In this document: positions 1 through 15,614 of the stretch, piece after piece
Layout of the letters: each line of letters opens with the position of its first letter
Position numbering within the stretch: the stretch's first letter is position 1
NCBI GenBank assembly: GCA_046757805.1
Contig: JBHHZA010000043.1
Span: forward strand, 1-16,368
Length of the DNA: 16,368 nt
Source of the DNA: Planctomycetaceae bacterium
GTDB taxonomy: Bacteria > Planctomycetota > Planctomycetia > Planctomycetales > Planctomycetaceae
Direction: 5' to 3'
Translations under genes and position numbers: made by a program
The notes under the pieces: model-generated
Told to the model about the DNA's origin: nothing
The model's database searches: none
The model's input: the letters and a program-made list of their open reading frames with translations, nothing else

Positions 1-3000
1 GATGGAGGGATGCGTGCCGGCGAGTCCTTCGACGGTCTGTTCGACCCGCGCGTCGACGATCGATTGCGAGTCGATTGTATTGCGAAGCAGCATCGCGGCG
101 ACTTCGTCGGCGTAATCGGCGTTGCCGCTAAGCCGCGAAGCGGTGTCGTGTTGGCCGAGAAACGCCCGCACCCAGTTGCGCGCCAGCCGGAAGCGGGCGA
201 CCGGCGAACCCTCGACCGACTTCACCGAAACCGCAAACTTTTTCGCGTGACCGAACTGCTTGAGGTGCGATTGGAAGGCGTCGCACAGGTCGGCCGCCGT
301 ACGGCTGACGGTGAAGGACCGGTTCTTGGGGCCGACCTCCTCCAGCTCGCCGCCGGCCAGCTCGAAGAACAGGTACTCGGCCGCTTCGTCCACAAGTTCC
401 GGCTCGAACAGTTCGAACTGCTCCACGAACTCGCGGAGCAGCGCCCGCAACTGGTCGACGTAGGCCTCGCGTCCGGAGCCGGCGGGGAACACCCGCGAGA
501 TCGCCCCCATGCCGTGCAGCTTGGCCGCCATCAACGCCTTCCGCTGCGGCTCGGCGAAGTGCTCCCAGAAGACGGCCCCCAGCGCGCGGGCCCGCGTGTG
601 AAACCTCAGCAGGCCGATCGTCGCCTGCATCTCAACGAGCACGCGTAACAGCTTCGCCGCGTCCCGGTCGTGCACCCCCTTCACGTAGCCTTCGCTGTAC
701 CGCGGGCCCATGAACCGCGCGACGAACGCCGCCAGCGCATCGTCGTCCATCTGCCGCAGGTCGTCCAGGCTTAGCCGCGACCCGGAGGGAAGCGCGTCCG
801 TTGCGCCATTCGTCGCCGCGTTCCCCTTCGGGTCGCGGCCAAACGGCGCGCTCGCATCCGTCAGCACTTTATACGCCAGATACTCCCCGCGATACACGTC
901 CCGGTTCTCCGAGACAACGTCCTGGTCCCAGACGTCGCGGCTGTCGTTGAGGAATTCGTCTTCGATTTCCTCGAAGAAGTTCGTGCCGGTGAGATGCAGG
1001 TTGAAGGCGCCGTCGCGCAGGACCGTCGTAAGGTCCAGGGCCTGCACGTTGACCGAGAACTGGTGGTTGCCGAACTGGATGACGTTCTGGCCGTCCACGT
1101 AGAGTTCCTGCCGGTCTTTCAACTGGCGGACGGCGTCTTCGCGGACGGTCTTCAGCCGGCTCTGGATGTCGTCGACCTTGACGGAGTCGTCGAGTTCATC
1201 GAGTTGTTCGCAGAGGTCGCGGACCTTGCCGATCATCAGGTCCGACGCGAAGTAGCTGTTGATGTCGTTGACCGACTCGAACCGCTCGACGCGGTTCTTG
1301 ATGCCTTTCAGGATCCGGTCGGCGGCGGCGGCCAGCGCACCGGCCCGCTTGTTCCGCGATTCGACGAGCGCCAGTTTGCGGGACTCGAACGCGTTGTAAA
1401 CTTCGTCCCGCTTTTCGGAGAGCTGGACGATGAACTCGTCGAATTCGGCGAAGCGCCCCTCCAGCTCTTCCAGCTGGATCATCACTTTTGTGAGAAACTC
1501 TTCGCACTTGTCCGGCGTGTCGCAGATGTCGAGATAATTGACGACGCTCTGGTTGAGCAGCTTCAACTGCGAATTGAACTCGGCGACCCCTTCGACCGAC
1601 GACAGTTCGCGCAACTGTCTTTTCAGCGCGGCCCGGGCCTGATTGACGGTCGCAAAGATCGTCGAAATGTTGTCGATGATCGCCGTCCGCTGCGTGGCGT
1701 CGTCGATTTTCAGGTTGCTGACGATCTCGATCAGCATTTCCAGTTCGCCGGCGCTGGCGGCGACGTCCTCCTCGACCTTTTTCGCGTCGGCGACTTTCGT
1801 AAGGTGCGGAATCCCGTCCTGCTGTTGCTGGATTTTCTCGACGTAGGGCTGAAGCGCATTGGGATTGAGCAGAAACTCGACGCAACGGTGCGAGAGCCGG
1901 TCGCTCTGCTCGACGACTCGGGTCTCCAGCGATTCGATCAGCGTTTCGTCGGCGTAACGAAGGTCCCGCAGCGAGATGATCTCCCCGCGTTCGCTGCGCA
2001 GGTCGGCCAGCGATTGCACGAAATCGTTGATGTGCTCGTAACGCCGGTGGGTCACCGCCCCCAGAATCTCCTCGGTCGCGTCGCGGACGCGCTTGGTCTG
2101 CTCGGCGGTGTTCCGCTTGACGCGGACGACCTTGTCGAACTCTTCAACGGCCGCCGCGGCGGCTTCCTTGATTTTCGCCAGCGGTTCGTCCAGCCGGTGC
2201 GTCTCCTCGCGATTCACCCAGAAATAGGAGTCGAGGACGTCACTGGCTTCCTTGGAGATGTCCACGTACAGGTTGGCGTAGGTGTCCTCTTTGTCGATCA
2301 ACGCGAGGACCTCGTGGCATTCGGCCATCGCGCGGACGATGTCTTTGTTGCCGATCTTGTAGAGGTAGGAATCGCTCTGCGTGGGCGGGTTGTGGTCTTC
2401 GCCGACGTACGGGGTCTGCCAGAGTTGCACGGCGTGGTGTTTCTGAGGTTCTCCCTGCGAGCGGAAGCAGACCAGTTCGCCGGCCTCGAACAACGTGTAG
2501 CCGTTGCAGACGATCGGCGTCTCGACCTGCTGCGCGATCAGATTGTAACGCAGCAGCACGTATTCGCCCCGGTCGCGATGGTAGAAGACGTACAGAAAGT
2601 CTTCGCCGTTCGGGGCGGCGATGCGGCGCTCGAAGATCAGCCCCGCCGGTACCGAATCGAACGTCTTGTGTTCGCCGGTCTGCAGATAATAGCCGTTGGC
2701 GAAGATCAGCCCGTGATGGTCCGGCAGGAGCACGCACGCGCGCTCGACGGAGTCCAGACGAATCGCCCGCTGGATTTTGTCGTTGTAAATGAAGTAGCGA
2801 TGCTTCTGTTCCTGATACGGCCGGATCTTCAGCAGGATCACGTTGCCGACGACGGCGTAGTAGACTTCCGCGTCGTCCAGCGTCTGATCGGGGTCGTCGA
2901 CCGGCTCGGAGTAAATGCCTTCGCCGCTGTCGGTGTTGTTTTCGATTTTGATCGTCAGGTCGCCGCCGACCGTCTCGACGAAGACGCGGTCTTCAATCGA

Positions 3001-3645
3001 AATGTGCGGGTGCAGGCCGGACTGGTGCAGATCACGGGTCGTGCGCTTCCATTCGAACTCGTGTTGTGGGGGATAGCGGACCTCGTGATCGCTGCGGCTG
3101 TCCACGTAGACCAGCGAATCCCCCTGCACGAGCCACTTGAACGTCTTGATGTCGGCCACGCTCTTGCCGACGCGCATCACCATGTAGAGATGCGGCCCTT
3201 TGGTGAAGAACTTGGCGAAGGTCGCGTTCTTGTAGTAGCGGTAGACGTCTTGGAATTCTTTTTCGAAGCGTTCGTCGCGGAGCAGCTCCAGGCCGAGTTC
3301 GCGGAACGAATTCTCGCGGAACTCGTAGACGGCAAAGACGTCGGCCAGGTCGGTCTCCGTCTTCAGCCCGATGTGCACGTTGTAACCGAAGAGGAACCGG
3401 TCCCCGATCGCCACCATGTCGCGGGGGACGCAGTTGTGCTGCGTGGTGATGCGCTCGGTGGAGAGCAGCGCGGTCTCGATCGCCCCGAAGACCGCTTTGC
3501 GGTCGACGTTGAGCCTCTCCATCCGCTCCGCGAGTTCCTTCCCGTAACCGGAAAGCCGGTTGCGGATGATCTCATACGTGCCGCTTTCCAGGGCGATCTC
3601 CGGCGCGGCGTCGGCGGGTTGGTTGTCGGGGTCGGGCGTGGCCAT
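1..3645 (-). CDS. Very large uncharacterised protein; start at 3645 lies in the window and more than 1215 codons are visible, but the 3' end runs off the window start. Beta-strand-rich N-terminal ~450 aa followed by a long alpha-helical region. Third gene of the NfeD-flotillin operon.
   Basis: I translated the minus strand by hand starting from the ATG whose reverse complement is CAT at 3643-3645. This gives MATPDPDNQPADAAPEIALESGTYEIIRNRLSGYGKELAERMERLNVDRK... and continues without a stop to position 1, where it reads ...ADYADEVAAMLLRNTIDSQSIVDARVEQTVEGLAGTHPSI. The composition is protein-like throughout, for example FANGYYLQTGEHKTFDSVPAGLIFERRIAAPNGEDFLYVFYHRDRGEYVLLRYNL and GTNFFEEIEDEFLNDSRDVWDQD. 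The plus-strand track ORF 994..3684 shares the same codon register and has the Val/Asp/Glu/Ala/Leu-rich look of an antisense shadow. I found no GxxxxGK[ST] motif in the visible 1215 residues. It lies on the same strand as, and 231 bp downstream of, the flotillin gene. Confidence 0.75.
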   Translation of the reverse strand, partial: MATPDPDNQPADAAPEIALESGTYEIIRNRLSGYGKELAERMERLNVDRKAVFGAIETALLSTERITTQHNCVPRDMVAIGDRFLFGYNVHIGLKTETDLADVFAVYEFRENSFRELGLELLRDERFEKEFQDVYRYYKNATFAKFFTKGPHLYMVMRVGKSVADIKTFKWLVQGDSLVYVDSRSDHEVRYPPQHEFEWKRTTRDLHQSGLHPHISIEDRVFVETVGGDLTIKIENNTDSGEGIYSEPVDDPDQTLDDAEVYYAVVGNVILLKIRPYQEQKHRYFIYNDKIQRAIRLDSVERACVLLPDHHGLIFANGYYLQTGEHKTFDSVPAGLIFERRIAAPNGEDFLYVFYHRDRGEYVLLRYNLIAQQVETPIVCNGYTLFEAGELVCFRSQGEPQKHHAVQLWQTPYVGEDHNPPTQSDSYLYKIGNKDIVRAMAECHEVLALIDKEDTYANLYVDISKEASDVLDSYFWVNREETHRLDEPLAKIKEAAAAAVEEFDKVVRVKRNTAEQTKRVRDATEEILGAVTHRRYEHINDFVQSLADLRSERGEIISLRDLRYADETLIESLETRVVEQSDRLSHRCVEFLLNPNALQPYVEKIQQQQDGIPHLTKVADAKKVEEDVAASAGELEMLIEIVSNLKIDDATQRTAIIDNISTIFATVNQARAALKRQLRELSSVEGVAEFNSQLKLLNQSVVNYLDICDTPDKCEEFLTKVMIQLEELEGRFAEFDEFIVQLSEKRDEVYNAFESRKLALVESRNKRAGALAAAADRILKGIKNRVERFESVNDINSYFASDLMIGKVRDLCEQLDELDDSVKVDDIQSRLKTVREDAVRQLKDRQELYVDGQNVIQFGNHQFSVNVQALDLTTVLRDGAFNLHLTGTNFFEEIEDEFLNDSRDVWDQDVVSENRDVYRGEYLAYKVLTDASAPFGRDPKGNAATNGATDALPSGSRLSLDDLRQMDDDALAAFVARFMGPRYSEGYVKGVHDRDAAKLLRVLVEMQATIGLLRFHTRARALGAVFWEHFAEPQRKALMAAKLHGMGAISRVFPAGSGREAYVDQLRALLREFVEQFELFEPELVDEAAEYLFFELAGGELEEVGPKNRSFTVSRTAADLCDAFQSHLKQFGHAKKFAVSVKSVEGSPVARFRLARNWVRAFLGQHDTASRLSGNADYADEVAAMLLRNTIDSQSIVDARVEQTVEGLAGTHPSI

Positions 3646-3697
3646 GGTGTCGGTTGCCGGGACGGCGTTGCAATGCCAATGTGATTCGGGAAAAGGC

Positions 3698-3809
3698 GGA
3701 CCCCGAAGGGGTTTCACAACAAAGCCCAGGGTCAGCGGCGAAGCCGCGCCACCCTGGGAAGGATTACGTTCGCGACTCTGGGCTTTGCTGTGTGACCCCT
3801 TCGGGGTGA
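3698..3809. repeat. Imperfect inverted repeat of two ~35-nt copies (3698-3732 and 3775-3809, about 29/33 identical as reverse complements) separated by 42 bp. Each copy has a CCCC-GAA/TTC-GGGG mini-hairpin, and the spacer has GCGGC-GAA-GCCGC. REP/BIME-like structured element inside an operon spacer.
   Basis: The left copy is ggaccccgaaggggtttcacaacaaagcccagggt. The reverse complement of the right copy is tcaccccgaaggggtcacacagcaaagcccagagt. The spacer hairpin gcggc gaa gccgc sits at 3735-3747. The element lies between the flotillin stop (3877) and the start of the large gene (3645), on the transcribed strand. Confidence 0.6.
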
Positions 3810-3876
3810 TGCGGGTCCGCGGATGTGCATCCCCGGCCGCGATTGGACGGATGACAATCCGTCCTACTGTTCGTTG

Positions 3877-5964
3877 CTATTTGGTGTTTTCCAGAAGACC
3901 GAGCCCCAACGCCTTCACCTTCTTCCCGGCGGAGCCGGTGCTTTTGACGAAGTCGAGGATGCGGTTCAGGTCGGCCTTCGATTCGTCGTCGTTGGATTCG
4001 ACCAGCATTTTGCCGATCAACGCCGAGACCGAGAGGTCCTTCACGTCTTCGAAACTCATGCCGAACTGGTCGATGAAGCCTTGCAGCTTCTCCTTGAAGT
4101 AATCGGGGTTGCCGTTGAAGAACGAGTTTTTGACGTCGGTGAGGGTTTCGCTGTTGTGGACGAAACGATCGACGGCCTTTCCGCCCTTGATCGAGTCGAC
4201 GATTTTGTCGAAGAAGACCGTTTCGCCGCCGACGATGTCGATGCGGGCCGACTTGAGGGCCTCTCCGACGATTCGCGATTGCGCCTCGGCGATTTCCTCC
4301 TGAGCGGTGATCGCGGCGATCTCGATGTCCTTCTCTTTGTTGAGGCTCAGCTTGAATTCCTCGTGCTCGCGGCCGACGCCGTCAAAGAGCTTCATGGCTT
4401 CGGCCTTCTCTTCGATGCCTTTCGCCTCGGAGCTGTACTTGAGGTGCATGACGGTGGCTTCGGCGGTGCCTTCCTTCTCGACGGCGACCGCGATCGCCTC
4501 TTTGCCCTTCGCTTCGGCGACGGCCTTCTTCTCGAGGACGCTGGCTTCGGCGGTGCCGTGCGTCTCGAACGCCTCGGCCTTGGCCGTGGTGACCTGGGCC
4601 TCGGCGAGTCCGACCGCGGCGGCGTCGGCGGTCTTCGCCTCGGCGAGCATTTTTCGGGCGGCGGTGTCCTTTTCGGCCGATTCGCGTCGGGCGTCGGCTT
4701 CGATGACGACCTGTTTCGCGCCGAATTCGGCGGCGTTTTTGGCCGCCTCGGCCTTCTTCACGTCTTTGACGAGCGCCTCTTCGGCTTCCTTTTCGGCCAA
4801 GGTGACGGCGACGCGTTTCGTCCGGTCGGCGGTGGCGAACTGTTCGGTGTCCTTGATGCGCTGCTCTTCTTCGACGACCGTGCGTTCGACCACGACCCGC
4901 TCGCGGATGATCTCCTGCACGTTGCGTTTCTCGGCTTCGATCACTTTTTCCTTCTCGATTTCGGCCAACCCGACGACGCGTTCGCGGTCGGTGACTTCCA
5001 GCAACCGGTCCTTTTCGACGCGCTCGGTTTCGACGGCGTCGGTCCGCTGCTTGTTTTTTGCGGCGACGATGATCTGCCGGTTCTTGTTTTCCTCGGCGAC
5101 CTGGACTTCTTCCTCAGTCACGATGCGGGCGCTTTCGGAACGCAACCGTTCTTCCTGGCGGATTTTTTCCGCCTCGGCCTCTTCGCGCGCGGTGATGGCG
5201 GCGATTTCCCGCTTCTGTTTTTCCTGGGCTTCGACGCGCTGGCGTTCGAGTTCGTAGATCGTCTCCGCGGCTTCGACGTCCTGCTTCTTGATGGTCTTTT
5301 CTTTTTCGCGGGTGAAGTGGTTTTCCTGGACTTTCTCCTTCGCCGTCAGTTCGGTGATCTTCTTGATGCCTTCCGCGTCGAGGATGTTCTGCGGGCTGAG
5401 CAATTCCAGTGGGGTCTGTTCGAGGTAGTCGATGTGACAGTTGTCGAGCCGGTAACCGTTCAGGTCGGTCCCGATCTCGGTGACGATCTTGTCGCGGAAG
5501 TTGTCGCGGTCCGTGTACAGGGAGACGAAATCGAACTGTTTGCCGACCGTCTTGAGCGCTTCGGAAAACTTCGCCTCGAACAGTTCGCGGAGCTGCGTGA
5601 TCTCGGAGGCCCGCTGCGGGTTGAGCATCTCGGCGACCTGCTTGATGCTCTCTTCCTCGTTGTTGACGCGCACGTAGAAGGCGACCTTGATGTCCGCCCG
5701 GATATTGTCCTGGCAGATCAGGCCGTCAGCCCCTTCGCGGGCGATTTCGATCCGCTTGACCGAAAGGTCCATCGTCTGCGCTTCCTGGATCAACGGGACC
5801 ACGACCATGCCGTGGCCCGTGCAGACCTTCAGCCCGCCCACACCCGTCTTGACGATCGCTTCCTCCGGGCCCGGTTTGCGGTAGAACCGGGAAAAGAGTA
5901 CGGCGAACCCGACCAGGAACACCAAGACGATTCCACCGTACATTAAGAGTTCAGCAGTAGTCAT
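3877..5964 (-). CDS. Flotillin-like SPFH/band-7 protein (FloT/YqiK family), 695 aa. N-terminal transmembrane helix, SPFH domain, long Glu/Ala/Lys-rich coiled-coil region, C-terminal flotillin tail.
   Basis: The track ORF begins MTTAELLMYGGIVLVFLVGFAVLFSRFYRKPGPEEAIVKTGVGG..., with a hydrophobic N-terminus followed by a band-7 core. An extensive EA/KE-rich coiled coil follows (...EAEKIRQEERLRSESARIVTEEEV...AEAKGKEAIAVAVEKEGTAEATV...), which is typical of flotillins. An AAGGTG Shine-Dalgarno-like motif sits about 7 nt upstream of the ATG at 5964. The start ATG overlaps the TGA of the upstream NfeD-like gene (ATGA at 5961-5964). The stop is TAG (cta at 3877-3879). Confidence 0.9.
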   Translation of the reverse strand: MTTAELLMYGGIVLVFLVGFAVLFSRFYRKPGPEEAIVKTGVGGLKVCTGHGMVVVPLIQEAQTMDLSVKRIEIAREGADGLICQDNIRADIKVAFYVRVNNEEESIKQVAEMLNPQRASEITQLRELFEAKFSEALKTVGKQFDFVSLYTDRDNFRDKIVTEIGTDLNGYRLDNCHIDYLEQTPLELLSPQNILDAEGIKKITELTAKEKVQENHFTREKEKTIKKQDVEAAETIYELERQRVEAQEKQKREIAAITAREEAEAEKIRQEERLRSESARIVTEEEVQVAEENKNRQIIVAAKNKQRTDAVETERVEKDRLLEVTDRERVVGLAEIEKEKVIEAEKRNVQEIIRERVVVERTVVEEEQRIKDTEQFATADRTKRVAVTLAEKEAEEALVKDVKKAEAAKNAAEFGAKQVVIEADARRESAEKDTAARKMLAEAKTADAAAVGLAEAQVTTAKAEAFETHGTAEASVLEKKAVAEAKGKEAIAVAVEKEGTAEATVMHLKYSSEAKGIEEKAEAMKLFDGVGREHEEFKLSLNKEKDIEIAAITAQEEIAEAQSRIVGEALKSARIDIVGGETVFFDKIVDSIKGGKAVDRFVHNSETLTDVKNSFFNGNPDYFKEKLQGFIDQFGMSFEDVKDLSVSALIGKMLVESNDDESKADLNRILDFVKSTGSAGKKVKALGLGLLENTK

Positions 5965-6611
5965 GTTTGCACCTTTTGATTCGCTCGTTTCACGAAATAG
6001 ATGTTGTCCTGGGGGGAGTAGTCGCAGATTTCGGCCCGCTCACCCTTTTTCATCGTTCCTTCCGCAGTCCGCACCGTCAGCAGCAGCGGAGCTCCGTCGG
6101 TGGCAAACCGGGCCTCTCCGCTGGTTTCCGTCGCCTCGCCGGTCGTAATCACGCAGGTCTTCCCGATCAAATCCGCAGCGCCGATCGGCGCGACGAAATC
6201 GAATATGTGCCGGATGGGCTGCGTCAACACCTTCGTGACCAGCGCCGCAATGGCGAAATCCCGCAGGATTGCCAACGCATCGCTGGAAAATACGAAATCC
6301 GCGTGAGGTCCCGGGTTTTCAAAGTACGTGGCAATCAGACGGGAAATCACCAGCGCCGAGAGCGCAAAAACGCTGAACCAGATCATCAACGGCACCCGCC
6401 CGAGATTGAGGAAACGCAACGGGACGAACCCCAAATCGAGCAGCGAGCCGTCAACGTCCGTATCGAAATGCAGGTCGTGGAAATCGACGTGCAGCAGATC
6501 GACCGTGACCGCTCCGAAGATCACCAGCAACCAGTACGCGCAAGCGACAATCACCAACACGGCCGCCGGCCAGGTGGGCCACTGGAAAATCGGCTCGAGG
6601 ACCTCGTCCAT
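5961..6611 (-). CDS. NfeD/YqiJ-like membrane protein (flotillin partner). N-terminal membrane helices plus a C-terminal OB-fold-like soluble domain.
   Basis: The track ORF 5961..6944 has an Arg/Ser-rich, implausible first 111 aa. A start at 6944 would also overlap the divergent gene that begins at 6911. I therefore start at the internal Met (reverse complement CAT at 6609-6611): MDEVLEPIFQWPTWPAAVLVIVACAYWLLVIFGAVTV...MIWFSVFALSALVISRLIATYF... followed by a soluble tail ...IGKTCVITTGEATETSGEARFATDGAPLLLTVRTAEGTMKKGERAEICDY.... Pairing an NfeD/YqiJ-like gene immediately upstream of a flotillin gene is the canonical operon arrangement (E. coli yqiJK, B. subtilis yuaF-floT). Confidence 0.72.
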   Translation of the reverse strand: MDEVLEPIFQWPTWPAAVLVIVACAYWLLVIFGAVTVDLLHVDFHDLHFDTDVDGSLLDLGFVPLRFLNLGRVPLMIWFSVFALSALVISRLIATYFENPGPHADFVFSSDALAILRDFAIAALVTKVLTQPIRHIFDFVAPIGAADLIGKTCVITTGEATETSGEARFATDGAPLLLTVRTAEGTMKKGERAEICDYSPQDNIYFVKRANQKVQT

Positions 6612-6790
6612 CGCGCATTCCTCAATGTCAACGCGTTGCCAGTATGCAACACGAACCTCCGCGTGTGTGGTGAGAACGCAACTCGAAACCGCGCGGATCA
6701 CGAAAAGTTGCACGTTGGCGTCGATTCTGCACTTTGGGACGGTCGCGCCGCAAGCACTTCTTCGACCGATTCTGCAATTCGTTGGTGCCC

Positions 6791-6831
6791 GGCCTTCCGG
6801 CTGCGGGAGTCGGCGAGAAGCCTTCCGGCTG
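6791..6831. promoter_or_regulatory. Two exact 13-bp direct repeats, gccttccggctgc (6791-6803 and 6819-6831, 28 bp centre to centre), in the ~300-bp divergent promoter region between the NfeD/flotillin operon and the glycosyltransferase gene. Candidate regulator binding site.
   Basis: The repeats are read directly from the sequence: cccggccttccggctgcgggagtcggcgagaagccttccggctgcccg. The same region also carries a 10/11-bp direct repeat, (t/c)cgattctgca, at 6720-6730 and 6765-6775. Confidence 0.35.
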
Positions 6832-6910
6832 CCCGATGCAAGGCGGGACGCCAACTGTCCGCGGTTCGCACGGCGTGATAGGCTGAGGTTGTTTCCCGAT
6901 AGACGCGACG

Positions 6911-10221: not shown

Positions 10222-10318
10222 GCGGCCCAAAACCAGTCACCTGGTGTTTTGCGAGGGCACTCGAAAGTTATCCGTTCACTTGTGTCAACCTATGGCTCAG
10301 ATCTTCAAACTGGTAGCC

Positions 10319-10370
10319 GCGGATGCATATCCGCAGTATCAAGGAGGCTCGGCTGCGGATATGCATCCGC
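10319..10370. terminator. Perfect 18-bp-stem hairpin (10319-10336 pairs with 10353-10370, 16-nt loop) between the convergent isoprenyl synthase and mnmA genes. Likely bidirectional terminator or RNA-stability element.
   Basis: The two arms are gcggatgcatatccgcag and ctgcggatatgcatccgc, exact reverse complements. Each 16-nt arm core is itself nearly palindromic (gcggat-gcat-atccgc), giving nested hairpins. The loop tatcaaggaggctcgg contains AAGGAGG. It lies 98 bp after the plus-gene stop and 47 bp after the minus-gene stop. T-runs (tattttt) lie about 20 nt to the plus side. Confidence 0.5.
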
Positions 10371-10416
10371 AGCTACAATGACTCTACCGTATCGTATTTT
10401 TGAAATGGTGTTTCGT

Positions 10417-12857: not shown

Positions 12858-14423
12858 ATGACATCGAAGTTACGAGTCGGCATTGCGTTACAGATTGGCG
12901 TTGCGGTGCTGTTCGGACTGACGACGGCGTCGCCCGCCGCCGAAAAGCCGAACATCGTCGTCATTCTCGCCGACGATCTGGGCTACGGCGACGTCGGCTG
13001 CTTCAACCCAAAGTCGAAGATCCCCACGCCGCACCTGGACAAGCTCGCGAAACAGGGGACTCGTTTTACCGACGCCCACAGCGCTTCCACCGTCTGCACG
13101 CCGTCGCGGTACGGCATCCTGACCGGGCGGATGTGTTTCCGCACCGGGTTTCGCGGCGTGTTCACCGGGGTGGACGGGCCGCTGATCGAGAAAGGCCGGC
13201 TCACGCTGCCGCAGATGCTGCGCGACAACGGCTATGCCACCGCTTGCGTGGGGAAGTGGCACGTCGGCATGACGTTCTTCGACAAGGACGGTAAGCCGGT
13301 CCGCAAACGGGGCGGCGGCGTCAACAAAGTCCGCCGCGTCGACTTTTCTCGTCCGATTCGCAATGGGCCGGTGGACGTCGGTTTCGACTATTTCTTCGGA
13401 ACGGTCTGCTGCCCCACCACCGACTGGCTGTATGCCTACATCGAAAACGACCGCATTCTCGAAGCGCCGACGACGATTGTCCGGCCGAAGACGAAACACT
13501 GGCTGGAGTACGAGCATTTCCGCGCCGGCCTGAAGGCGCCGGGATTCCATTTCCGCGACGTCGACCTGCGGTTCCTGAAGCAGAGCCGGCGGTTTCTCGA
13601 ACGACACGTGAAGACGAAACCGGACCAGCCGTTCTTTCTGTATCATGCCACGCAATCGGCCCACCTGCCGGCCTTGCCCGCCAGGCAGTTCGTCGACAAA
13701 ACCAAAGCCGGCCCGCTCGGAGATTGTATCTTCGAATTCGACCACGTCGTCGGCAAACTGATGAAAACGCTGGACCGGCTGGGCGTGGCCAAAAACACGC
13801 TGGTGATCGTCACCAGCGACAACGGCCCCGAGATCGTCATCACGCACATGCGCAAAGCGTACGGCCACGACGGCGCATACCCCTGGCGCGGCATGAAGCG
13901 CGACAACTGGGAAGGCGGGCATCGCGTCCCCTTCATCGCCCGCTGGCCGGGCCGCATCGAACCCGGCAGCACCAGCGACGAGACGATCTGCCTGACGGAC
14001 ATCATGGCTACCTGCGCGGGAATCGTCGGCGCGAAACTGCCGAATAACGCGGCCGAAGACAGCGTAAGCATTCTCCCGGCGCTGCAAAGCCGCAAGCGGC
14101 GGAAACCGCTGCGCCCCTACACGCTGCACCAGACGATGAGCCTTGCGTTGGGGATCCGCCGCGGGCCGTGGAAACTGCTGGATCACAGAGGCTCCGGCGG
14201 CAACAACTACAACGCGCCGCGCTTGAAGCCCTACGCGATCAAAGACGCGGCCCCCAACGCCCCCGGCCAACTCTACAACCTGCGCACCGACCCCGGCGAA
14301 CGGCGCAACCTGTACCGCGAGCGGCCGAAGATCGTGCGGGAATTGAAGAAACTGCTGGAGCAATCGAAGTCCGCAAAGCGCCGTATCGGCCTTCCCAAGC
14401 CGAGATCGCATGGCCGGCCGTAA
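12858..14423 (+). CDS. Cys-type sulfatase (arylsulfatase / N-acetylgalactosamine-6-sulfatase-like) with an N-terminal Sec signal peptide, 521 aa.
   Basis: The sequence is MTSKLRVGIALQIGVAVLFGLTTASPAAEKPNIVVILADDLGYGDVGCFN...DAHSASTVCTPSRYGILTGR, carrying the CxPxR formylglycine signature, then ...LVIVTSDNGPE... and ...GGHRVPFIARWPG.... These are classic sulfatase-family blocks. Confidence 0.92.
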   Translation: MTSKLRVGIALQIGVAVLFGLTTASPAAEKPNIVVILADDLGYGDVGCFNPKSKIPTPHLDKLAKQGTRFTDAHSASTVCTPSRYGILTGRMCFRTGFRGVFTGVDGPLIEKGRLTLPQMLRDNGYATACVGKWHVGMTFFDKDGKPVRKRGGGVNKVRRVDFSRPIRNGPVDVGFDYFFGTVCCPTTDWLYAYIENDRILEAPTTIVRPKTKHWLEYEHFRAGLKAPGFHFRDVDLRFLKQSRRFLERHVKTKPDQPFFLYHATQSAHLPALPARQFVDKTKAGPLGDCIFEFDHVVGKLMKTLDRLGVAKNTLVIVTSDNGPEIVITHMRKAYGHDGAYPWRGMKRDNWEGGHRVPFIARWPGRIEPGSTSDETICLTDIMATCAGIVGAKLPNNAAEDSVSILPALQSRKRRKPLRPYTLHQTMSLALGIRRGPWKLLDHRGSGGNNYNAPRLKPYAIKDAAPNAPGQLYNLRTDPGERRNLYRERPKIVRELKKLLEQSKSAKRRIGLPKPRSHGRP

Positions 14424-15504: not shown

Positions 15505-15614
15505 GAACCGCCAAGACGCCAAGTTCGCCAAGATGCTTGTGGTTGGACGCCGTTGATACGGCGAAACAGGTTTCCGTCTTGGCGAACTTGGCGAACTTGG
15601 CGTCTTGGCGGTTC
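15505..15614. repeat. 110-bp palindromic element with a 28-bp perfect inverted repeat (15505-15532 pairs with 15587-15614) built from CGCCAAG/CTTGGCG heptamers. Three copies lie in the left arm and four in the right, and a nested hairpin cgccgt-tgat-acggcg sits at 15548-15563. It lies between convergent genes. It could be a MITE/REP-like element or a bidirectional terminator.
   Basis: The left arm is gaaccgccaagacgccaagttcgccaag. The right side is cttggcgaacttggcgaacttggcgtcttggcggttc, whose last 28 nt are the exact reverse complement of the left arm. The flanks are amidohydrolase (plus strand, stop 15453) and sulfatase-like (minus strand, stop 15641). Confidence 0.65.

What the first reader, a model, noticed from the sequence alone, without database searches (positions are those of the whole stretch)
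1..6611. NfeD - flotillin - giant protein three-gene operon: candidate undescribed flotillin-associated system
NfeD/YqiJ-like plus flotillin is a well-known two-gene module. Here it is followed, on the same strand and after a structured 231-bp spacer, by a very large gene (more than 1215 codons visible, still open at the window edge) with no recognisable enzymatic signature. There are no intervening promoters of opposite-strand genes. NfeD and flotillin are translationally coupled through an ATGA overlap. The plain reading is that the giant protein is a dedicated partner or cargo of the flotillin scaffold. I do not know of such a giant partner as a described component of SPFH/NfeD modules.
Basis: partly seen in the sequence, partly recalled or inferred. 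Interest (0 to 1): 0.75.

Follow-up and report, generated by a model that had tools for sequence, protein, structure and literature searches.

The report
Flotillin operon with giant AAA+ ATPase
A small membrane protein, a flotillin scaffold and a ~1,800-residue ATPase form a three-gene unit kept together in at least ten bacterial phyla; it was already noted in a 2024 comparative-genomics paper, but nobody has tested its function.

Summary
On the minus strand lie a YqiJ/NfeD-like gene (5961-6611), a YqiK-type flotillin (3877-5964, ATGA overlap), a structured 231-bp spacer, and an ORF open for 1215 codons to the contig end.

The giant protein is not featureless. It belongs to the DUF3686-DUF7902-AAA family, which NCBI labels "DNA repair ATPase". 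Full-length homologues are about 1,800 aa. Their AAA+ domain starts about 50 residues beyond the window edge.

The linkage is conserved. Of 74 related loci with enough upstream DNA, 72 carry the flotillin directly upstream on the same strand, and 69 of 73 also carry the NfeD gene. These loci span Planctomycetota, Bacteroidota, Verrucomicrobiota, Acidobacteriota, Desulfobacterota, Pseudomonadota, Actinomycetota, Deinococcota and others. In Bacteroidota and on Pseudomonas plasmid pQBR103 the unit is extended by CesT/Tir-PspA.

This operon, including its abbreviated form, was described computationally by Ravi et al. 2024 (PMC11237479). So it is not undescribed. I found no experimental work on it.

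Most likely the ATPase remodels flotillin and/or PspA assemblies during envelope stress. That mechanism is inferred, not shown.

The parts
5961..6611 (-). YqiJ/NfeD-like small membrane protein, 216 aa. It has predicted TM helices, an acidic Asp-rich loop and a conserved C-terminal soluble domain.
   Evidence: Pfam YqiJ_N E=8.2e-5, 23.2 bits against a cutoff of 23. BLASTP to E. coli YqiJ E=5e-5. Profile of 12 orthologues against YqiJ: hhalign probability 95.7%, E=1e-8. Alignment A4.
5961..5964 (-). ATGA overlap of the NfeD stop codon and the flotillin start codon
   Evidence: Read directly.
3877..5964 (-). YqiK-type flotillin, 695 aa. It has an N-terminal hydrophobic anchor (aa 6-27), an SPFH region, a long Glu/Ala-rich coiled coil and a conserved C-terminal part about 135 aa longer than in E. 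coli YqiK.
   Evidence: BLASTP to E. coli YqiK: 29% identity over 448 aa, E=5e-49. Orthologues are 33-79% identical across phyla. PGAP names orthologues 'flotillin family protein' or 'SPFH domain-containing protein'. No Pfam hit for the window protein itself.
3646..3876 (-). 231-nt flotillin-to-ATPase spacer. It is highly structured and its sequence is not conserved.
   Evidence: MFE -112.6 kcal/mol, z=-7.3. No Rfam family above threshold. No sequence conservation even against the 84%-identical relative L086. Orthologous spacers are mostly 80-300 nt, and 27 of 40 fold with z<-2.
3700..3807 (-). Long imperfect hairpin (34-nt arms, 88% complementary, 40-nt branched loop) followed by CCUUUUCCC
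   Evidence: It was not reported as a canonical intrinsic terminator.
3845..3864 (-). Small perfect hairpin GGACGGAU-UGUC-AUCCGUCC, 12 nt after the flotillin stop codon
3819..3834 (.). REP-like palindrome GCGGAT-N4-ATCCGC. Other copies lie at 10319-10334, 10355-10370 and 13127-13142.
   Evidence: 8 strand-matches against 0.13 expected. A similar motif is in the L086 spacer.
1..3645 (-). N-terminal 1215 aa of a ~1,800-aa DUF3686-DUF7902-AAA+ ATPase, truncated by the contig end
   Evidence: Full-length orthologues are 1,600-1,900 aa with a C-terminal AAA+ domain.
2221..3537 (-). DUF3686 domain (aa 37-475): a beta-propeller-like all-beta domain clasped by an N-terminal long helix and C-terminal helices
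1108..2208 (-). Helical / coiled-coil region (aa 480-846), including DUF7902 (aa 596-680, nt 1606-1860)
   Evidence: Pfam PF25472 E=1.1e-28. Helices in the model (pLDDT 65-86 in this region). The weak PADLOC LmuB match at aa 513-866 falls in this helical region.
1..1107 (-). Small beta region (aa 855-893) and a helical domain (aa 960-1200) that precede the AAA+ module, which lies beyond the window
   Evidence: Secondary structure (pLDDT mostly 70-90 for aa 960-1200). In P0009 the AAA domain begins at about aa 1266.

Best explanation
The locus is the abbreviated, PspA-less form of a widespread three-gene module: YqiJ/NfeD membrane protein, then YqiK-type flotillin, then a giant cytoplasmic AAA+ ATPase (beta-propeller, helical coiled-coil region, DUF7902, AAA+). 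That part is shown.

The proposed mechanism is inferred. The flotillin, with YqiJ, forms an SPFH cage or microdomain on the cytoplasmic face of the inner membrane. The ATPase docks there through its beta-propeller and coiled-coil parts. A plausible docking site is the conserved flotillin C-terminal extension that YqiK lacks. The ATPase then uses ATP to remodel protein assemblies at that site. The targets could be the flotillin cage itself, its clients, and/or PspA (ESCRT-III-type) polymers encoded next to it or elsewhere in the genome. The setting would be an envelope-stress or membrane-repair response.

The structured, non-conserved spacer most likely lowers or buffers ATPase expression relative to the abundant scaffold. 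That too is inferred.
For: Shown:
- Family assignments.
- The AAA+ domain in all full-length orthologues has invariant Walker A SPPGYGKT, Walker B hhhhDD, sensor-1 N and conserved Arg residues.
- No TM segment in the full-length orthologue P0009.
- Synteny of 72/74 (flotillin) and 69/73 (flotillin plus NfeD), in fixed order and on one strand, across at least 10 phyla while the flanking genes differ.
- No other conserved neighbour downstream.
- Divergence of flotillin and ATPase is correlated (Pearson 0.90, n=68).
- 23 of 73 loci add PspA. In Bacteroidota, 19-22 loci also carry CesT_Tir_1 and a divergent XRE-HTH/S24 regulator. pQBR103 adds YjfI-PspA and a polyamine-type PSP operon.

From the literature:
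- Ravi et al. 2024 describe the same operon and propose chaperone-like, ATP-dependent sub-membrane remodelling.
- The Ravi et al. supplement lists the same gene order for Dokdonia.
- An SPFH protein recruits PspA in B. subtilis (cited).

From my own knowledge: SPFH cages house AAA+ machines in HflK/C-FtsH and in prohibitin/m-AAA.
Against: - No experiment exists for any member in the searchable literature.
- The AAA+ clade is unresolved. Sequence similarity to Cdc48/p97 covers only about 40 residues around the P-loop, and Pfam AAA_5 matches the domain more completely.
- Walker B is DD rather than DE, so hydrolysis may be slow or regulatory.
- No physical interaction has been tested.
- PspA is not in this window, nor next to the operon in the two planctomycete loci with gene calls, L001 and L002.
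- Co-transcription is not shown. The spacer hairpin could act as a terminator, with the ATPase gene having its own promoter.
Confidence: 0.5

Rival explanations
1. The ATPase is specifically a functional analogue of Vps4. It would disassemble or recycle PspA/ESCRT-III polymers, with the flotillin/YqiJ cage marking the membrane site.
For: PspA, with its CesT/Tir partner, lies in the same operon in Bacteroidota (19-22 loci) and on pQBR103. Archaeal ESCRT loci also combine ESCRT-III, an SPFH protein and Vps4 (Makarova et al.).
Against: Most loci, including this window, have no PspA in cis (50 of 73). No MIT domain was found. Flotillin, not PspA, is the invariant partner. Relatedness to the Vps4/Cdc48 clade is limited to the P-loop region.
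Confidence: 0.18
2. It is an anti-phage or abortive-infection module, a membrane-acting defence system triggered by envelope or DNA damage.
For: Copies occur on large plasmids. Toxin and defence-type genes (AbiEii, ParE, DUF4258, a STAND NTPase, DUF559) are inserted next to or inside the operon in some genomes. Bacteroidota copies carry a LexA/CI-like XRE-S24 regulator.
Against: PADLOC gives no hit for flotillin or NfeD, and only a weak helical-region match (LmuB, E=1.4e-6) for the ATPase. There is no match in 50,697 phage records. Sequence conservation is very high (AAA module 55-72% identical across phyla). Presence in the sampled relatives, in housekeeping contexts, is unlike fast-evolving, patchy defence genes.
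Confidence: 0.08
3. The database name is right: it is a DNA repair ATPase, SMC/Rad50-like, that merely sits beside flotillin.
For: The Pfam and NCBI names say so. A long helical region gives a weak LmuB (SMC-like) match. There are weak RuvB_N matches.
Against: The N-terminus is a beta-propeller without a P-loop. The only ATPase is a single C-terminal AAA+ module, not a split ABC head. No DNA-binding domain was detected. The invariant neighbours are two membrane proteins. No paper supports the name.
Confidence: 0.04
4. One reading: the giant protein is a passive cargo or structural partner of the flotillin scaffold, with no activity of its own.
For: The 1215 visible residues are indeed non-catalytic (beta-propeller plus helices).
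Against: The missing C-terminus is the most conserved part of the protein and has intact nucleotide-binding motifs in 15 of 15 orthologues from many phyla.
Confidence: 0.05

Closest known systems
[quoted passage not shown] 2024, mSystems, PMC11237479; example: Dokdonia donghaensis ANH61663.1)
   Same: Same three proteins, same order, same strand. My Bacteroidota loci reproduce their full version gene for gene, including the divergent HTH-protease regulator. The window is their abbreviated version.
   Different: The window has no CesT/Tir or PspA in cis. It comes from Planctomycetota. The paper gives only a few sentences, does not use the DUF3686 name, and reports no quantified synteny, structure or experiment.
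E. coli yqiJ-yqiK and B. subtilis yuaF-floT (the NfeD-flotillin two-gene module)
   Same: The first two genes are homologous (YqiK E=5e-49; YqiJ hhalign 95.7%) and are likewise adjacent.
   Different: E. coli K-12 has no ATPase gene downstream; sib/ibs toxin loci follow instead. The window flotillin is about 140 aa longer at its C-terminus.
HflK/HflC-FtsH and prohibitin/m-AAA protease (an SPFH cage around an AAA+ machine)
   Same: An SPFH-family scaffold is genetically or physically coupled to an AAA+ ATPase at the membrane. This is an analogy from established knowledge and was not tested here.
   Different: The ATPase here has no TM helices and no protease domain. It carries a beta-propeller and a long helical coiled-coil region. 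Flotillin-type SPFH proteins face the cytoplasm, whereas the HflK/C cage is periplasmic.
Archaeal and eukaryotic ESCRT-III/Vps4, including archaeal loci that carry an SPFH protein (Makarova et al. 2024)
   Same: The extended bacterial versions combine an ESCRT-III-superfamily protein (PspA), an SPFH protein and an AAA+ ATPase.
   Different: No MIT domain was found. Similarity to Cdc48/Vps4-type ATPases is limited to the P-loop region. PspA is absent from most loci.

Membership tests
DUF3686-DUF7902-AAA+ 'DNA repair ATPase' family | N-terminal DUF3686 (PF12458) domain | tested here: met
   E=3.8e-194, aa 37-475, full model length.
DUF3686-DUF7902-AAA+ 'DNA repair ATPase' family | Central DUF7902 (PF25472) | tested here: met
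   E=1.1e-28, aa 596-680.
DUF3686-DUF7902-AAA+ 'DNA repair ATPase' family | C-terminal AAA+ P-loop module | not testable with these tools
   It lies beyond the contig end. It is present in essentially all full-length homologues at 59-84% identity and starts at about aa 1266 in P0009.
YqiK-type flotillin (SPFH superfamily) | Significant full-length similarity to a named flotillin | tested here: met
   E. coli YqiK: 29% identity over 448 aa, E=5e-49.
YqiK-type flotillin (SPFH superfamily) | Match to the Pfam Band_7/SPFH model | tested here: not met
   No hit even at E=10. Only 1 of 12 orthologues matches Band_7 (9.3e-11). The PDB profile search finds only QmcA, at E=0.0018. The family is a divergent branch, so membership rests on the YqiK alignment.
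YqiK-type flotillin (SPFH superfamily) | N-terminal membrane anchor followed by a long Glu/Ala-rich coiled coil | tested here: met
   Read from the sequence: hydrophobic aa 6-27 and an E/A/K-rich stretch at aa 200-520.
NfeD / YqiJ family | YqiJ_N membrane domain | tested here: met
   PF21001 at 23.2 bits against a cutoff of 23, which is marginal. hhalign of the orthologue profile against E. coli YqiJ: 95.7%, E=1e-8.
NfeD / YqiJ family | Gene directly upstream of, and coupled to, an SPFH gene | tested here: met
   ATGA overlap. Conserved in 69 of 73 loci.
NfeD / YqiJ family | C-terminal OB-fold (NfeD_C) domain | not tested
   Alignment A4 shows a conserved C-terminal block, but no structure was predicted and no Pfam NfeD hit was obtained.
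PSP-linked YqiJ-flotillin-AAA+ operon (Ravi et al. 2024) | The three genes on one strand in the order YqiJ, flotillin, ATPase | tested here: met
   Window coordinates. The same order holds in 69 of 73 related loci.
PSP-linked YqiJ-flotillin-AAA+ operon (Ravi et al. 2024) | ATPase with N-terminal beta-propeller and coiled coil | tested here: met
PSP-linked YqiJ-flotillin-AAA+ operon (Ravi et al. 2024) | CesT/Tir-PspA dyad in cis (full form only) | tested here: not met
   Absent from the 16-kb window and from the planctomycete loci L001 and L002. So the window is the abbreviated form that the paper also describes.
Classical AAA clade (Cdc48/p97, Vps4, FtsH) | Similarity across the whole AAA module, including the second region of homology | tested here: inconclusive
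   PDB hits to p97/Cdc48 at E about 1e-7 to 1e-5 cover only about 40 residues around Walker A. PF00004 covers model positions 1-69 of 131, while AAA_5 covers 2-126 of 139. Walker B is DD.
SMC/Rad50-type DNA repair ATPase (implied by the database name) | Split ABC ATPase head with Walker A at the N-terminus, separated by a coiled coil from a C-terminal signature motif and Walker B | tested here: not met
   The N-terminus is a beta-propeller without a P-loop. There is a single C-terminal AAA+ module. The LmuB match is confined to the helical region.
Known anti-phage defence systems (PADLOC) | Component proteins match system models | tested here: not met
   No hit for NfeD or flotillin. Only weak LmuB and BrxA matches for the ATPase.

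The most novel reading that the evidence does not exclude
The giant beta-propeller AAA+ ATPase is the bacterial counterpart of Vps4. It would be an ATP-driven disassembly or recycling machine for PspA/ESCRT-III polymers, working at membrane patches capped by a flotillin-YqiJ cage. If so, a complete module of ESCRT-III, an SPFH protein and an AAA+ ATPase exists in bacteria, where recent reviews say such an ATPase is missing (PMC7619361; PMC11188069).
Probability: 0.15. Interest if true: 0.8.

Novelty: new member of a known kind. Interest (0 to 1): 0.35.

Why it matters
Bacterial flotillins are widely studied, yet their mechanism is unclear. Here a flotillin subfamily has an obligate, very large AAA+ partner. 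More than 6,000 homologues were found, forming 754 clusters at 50% identity, and all are mislabelled 'DNA repair ATPase'. That gives a concrete biochemical handle: an energy-consuming machine tied to an SPFH cage and, in many genomes, to PspA. Characterising it could show how flotillin or PspA assemblies are turned over, and would correct a misleading annotation. For this scan, the result is that the finding is real but already reported in silico.

Tried and rejected
- Pfam and NCBIfam on the flotillin gave nothing, even at E=10. This was resolved by direct comparison with E. coli YqiK.
- hhalign of the flotillin profile against a Band_7-positive ORF from L078 showed no similarity (probability 0.2%), so it was uninformative.
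- PDB sequence searches with the visible giant protein and with the NfeD profile gave nothing usable.
- The first AlphaFold run, on 1,200 aa with 26 close homologues, was poor (pLDDT 59.8). Only its helical regions were used. A second run on aa 1-500 with 62 diverse sequences worked.
- The first alignment for locus finding was too diverse and had to be narrowed.
- The afdb50 fold library was unavailable.
- The phage collection gave no match.
- Literature searches for DUF3686, PF12458, 'DNA repair ATPase' with flotillin, and YqiJ/YqiK with AAA+ found nothing beyond Ravi et al..
- Rfam gave no family for the spacer. The Acido-Lenti-1 match at E=0.74 was rejected as chance.
- I considered the spacer hairpin as a conserved regulatory RNA and rejected that. 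There is no sequence conservation even in the closest relative. What recurs is 'some stable hairpin', not a motif.
Full report
**1. What is in the sequence.**

The window is a 60-65% GC contig. It is identical to a complete 16,368-bp public MAG contig from a Planctomycetaceae bacterium (P0001). Three minus-strand genes occupy 1-6611.

- The first is a 216-aa membrane protein at 5961-6611. Its ATG at 6609-6611 follows a GAGGAA motif, and the length agrees with orthologues of 203-216 aa.
- The second is a 695-aa protein at 3877-5964. Its ATG overlaps the upstream TGA as ATGA at 5961-5964.
- After exactly 231 bp comes an ORF that starts at 3645 and stays open for 1215 codons until the contig ends.
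- Long plus-strand ORFs over the same DNA have no family match and are antisense shadows.
- Upstream, a PMT_2 glycosyltransferase gene diverges on the plus strand. The rest of the window encodes MoaC, a polyprenyl synthetase, a sulfatase and an amidohydrolase. None of these is conserved next to the operon elsewhere.

**2. Identity of the three proteins.**

- The small protein matches Pfam YqiJ_N marginally. As a 12-sequence profile it matches E. coli YqiJ with 95.7% hhalign probability.
- The 695-aa protein has no Pfam or NCBIfam hit at all. It nevertheless aligns with E. coli YqiK at 29% identity over 448 residues, E=5e-49. It is therefore a divergent YqiK-type flotillin. It is about 140 residues longer than YqiK, the excess lying in a highly conserved C-terminal part (A3).
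- The giant protein matches DUF3686 ('ATPase involved in DNA repair', E=4e-194, aa 37-475) and DUF7902 (aa 596-680).
- More than 6,000 homologues were retrieved. Full-length ones are 1,600-1,900 aa and carry a C-terminal AAA domain. A library-wide search gives 754 clusters at 50% identity.
- In the Symmachiella orthologue the AAA module starts at about residue 1266. That is roughly 50 residues beyond the point where the window stops.

**3. Architecture of the ATPase.**

- An AlphaFold2 model of residues 1-500, built on 62 diverse homologues, is confident (pLDDT 89.1, pTM 0.87).
- It shows a long N-terminal helix, about 26 beta strands, and C-terminal helices.
- Every top Foldseek hit in the PDB is a beta-propeller (WD40, Kelch, prolyl-oligopeptidase, Sec12, CyRPA). 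E-values are near 1e-7 but TM-scores are only 0.2-0.27.
- So the domain is propeller-like with no close solved relative.
- Residues 480-846 are long helices. Residues 855-893 form a small beta element, and 960-1200 form a helical domain (whose confidence is adequate only in these regions).
- No TM segment exists in the full-length orthologue.
- The AAA module is the best-conserved part, at 55-72% identity across phyla. Walker A SPPGYGKT, sensor-1 Asn and several Arg residues are invariant. Walker B is an invariant hhhhDD (YLDDIQH) instead of DE.
- Sequence similarity to solved structures (p97/Cdc48/VAT, then RuvB) is limited to about 40 residues around the P-loop. Pfam AAA_5 covers the module more completely than PF00004. 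The AAA+ clade is therefore unresolved.

**4. Is the linkage real?**

- I collected 80 loci from one-genome-per-species contigs using the DUF3686 domain. I added four metagenomic or genomic loci and six loci from the plasmid collection, some of them chromosome-sized records.
- Of 74 loci with at least 2.5 kb upstream of the ATPase gene, 72 have the flotillin on the same strand upstream. Of 73 loci with at least 3.3 kb upstream, 69 have both flotillin and the YqiJ-like gene.
- The order never changes. Unsupervised clustering of all ORFs finds no other neighbour conserved across phyla, and none downstream.
- The taxa include Planctomycetota, Bacteroidota, Verrucomicrobiota, Acidobacteriota, Desulfobacterota, Chitinispirillaceae and Eubacteriales.
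- At 32-37% identity they also include Proteus, Vibrio, Pseudomonas plasmid pQBR103, Streptomyces, Nonomuraea and Deinococcus.
- Divergence of flotillin and ATPase is correlated (r=0.90, n=68).
- There are two exceptions. L031 has toxin-antitoxin and STAND NTPase genes in front of the ATPase. L067 has signal peptidase and PCMT genes there.

**5. The extended versions.**

- In 19-22 Bacteroidota loci the triad is preceded by a CesT_Tir_1 protein (PF22550, E=4e-54) and a PspA/IM30 protein (E=5e-41). A divergent XRE-HTH/peptidase-S24 regulator sits beside them.
- On pQBR103 the triad follows YjfI-PspA-rhomboid-DUF2491-DUF350-DUF1190-glutathionylspermidine synthase.
- Overall, 23 of 73 loci contain PspA.

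**6. Prior knowledge.**

- Ravi et al. [quoted passage not shown] - Their Table S3 entry for Dokdonia lists exactly the gene order I found in Bacteroidota.
- The system is thus described in silico.
- I found no experimental study and no paper using the DUF3686 name.

**7. The spacer.**

- The 231-nt spacer folds far better than shuffles (z=-7.3). It contains:
  - a small perfect hairpin just after the flotillin stop codon;
  - a REP-like palindrome, GCGGAT-N4-ATCCGC, that recurs elsewhere in the window;
  - a 108-nt hairpin at 3700-3807 followed by CCUUUUCCC.
- It matches no Rfam family. It contains no sigma-70-like promoter and no canonical terminator.
- Its sequence is not conserved, even against a relative whose ATPase is 84% identical.
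- Across orthologous loci the spacer is usually 80-300 nt, and 27 of 40 fold with z<-2 (mononucleotide shuffles).
- In other genomes the same position holds unrelated inserted genes: DMP19, DUF3997, AbiEii, DUF559 and an extra Band_7 protein.
- I infer a generic intercistronic stem-loop or REP site that tunes ATPase expression relative to the scaffold. It is not a specific riboregulator. Co-transcription remains untested.

**8. Mechanism.**

- Shown: a membrane-anchored flotillin, its YqiJ partner, and a soluble AAA+ ATPase with a propeller and long helices are inherited as one unit. PspA is a frequent additional member.
- Inferred, by analogy with SPFH cages that house AAA+ machines (HflK/C-FtsH and prohibitin/m-AAA; from established knowledge) and with PspA recruitment by SPFH proteins in B. 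subtilis: the ATPase docks on the cytoplasmic flotillin assembly and uses ATP to remodel it, its clients and/or PspA polymers during envelope stress.
- I give this general model about 0.5 and the specific Vps4-analogue version about 0.15-0.2.
- The defence-system, DNA-repair and passive-cargo readings are each below 0.1, for the reasons listed under the rival explanations.

**9. Verdict.**

- The window is a new planctomycete member of a known but experimentally untouched kind.
- Interest is moderate. The system is widespread, misannotated and mechanistically open, but its existence would not surprise a specialist who knows the PSP comparative-genomics work.

Noticed in passing
L027 8615-9698; L045 8076-9380; L033 9503-9940; L038 7784-9768; L078 3437-7352; L031 7253-9805: The flotillin-to-ATPase intergenic position is a recurrent insertion site for unrelated small genes: DMP19, DUF3997, AbiEii toxin, a DUF559 endonuclease-like protein, an extra Band_7 protein, ParE, DUF4258 and a STAND NTPase. 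In L031 the flotillin is not within 10 kb.
   Followed up: partly
window 10313-10376, 15505-15614, 3819-3834, 13127-13142: Intergenic palindromes are present. One has perfect 28-nt arms (15505-15532 / 15587-15614). A repeated motif GCGGAT-N4-ATCCGC gives 8 strand-matches against 0.13 expected. A similar motif sits in the spacer of the closest relative, L086. This looks like a REP-like family of this planctomycete lineage.
   Followed up: partly
AAA module of orthologues (alignment A8), e.g. L001 13646-14920: Walker B is an invariant Asp-Asp (YLDDIQH) instead of the usual Asp-Glu in 15 orthologues from many phyla. Walker A, the sensor-1 Asn and the conserved Arg residues are intact.
   Followed up: partly
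window 994-3684(+), 3823-5946(+), 5967-6878(+): Very long antisense ORFs (896, 707 and 303 aa) shadow the three real genes. They have no family hits. Comparable shadow ORFs form 'conserved' clusters across loci and could mislead gene callers.
   Followed up: yes
window 771-842: A 26-nt-arm inverted repeat (85% complementary, 20 nt apart) lies inside the coding sequence of the giant gene.
   Followed up: no
window 6808-6876 (+): There is a sub-threshold Rfam match to Pseudomonas sRNA P10 (28.5 bits against gathering 37, E=0.0014) in the divergent intergenic region between the NfeD-like gene and the PMT_2 gene. It is probably chance.
   Followed up: no
L086 959-3140 and 3384-8992: In the closest relative (ATPase 84% identical) the flotillin is called as four fragments and the ATPase as two. 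These are most likely assembly frameshifts rather than pseudogenes.
   Followed up: no
L016 3968-6093 and 18-21 other Bacteroidota loci; L083 986-6110: Bacteroidota copies carry a divergent XRE-HTH + peptidase S24 (LexA/CI-like) regulator next to CesT_Tir_1-PspA. Plasmid pQBR103 joins the triad to the polyamine-type PSP operon (YjfI, PspA, rhomboid, DUF2491, DUF350, DUF1190, glutathionylspermidine synthase).
   Followed up: partly
P0004: A 'eukprot' protein is 70% identical to the planctomycete ATPase. This is probably bacterial contamination of a eukaryotic data set rather than a eukaryotic homologue.
   Followed up: no
window 3880-4290 (flotillin aa ~560-695): The flotillins linked to the ATPase share a strongly conserved C-terminal region that did not align with E. 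coli YqiK, which has no ATPase partner. This region is a candidate docking site.
   Followed up: no
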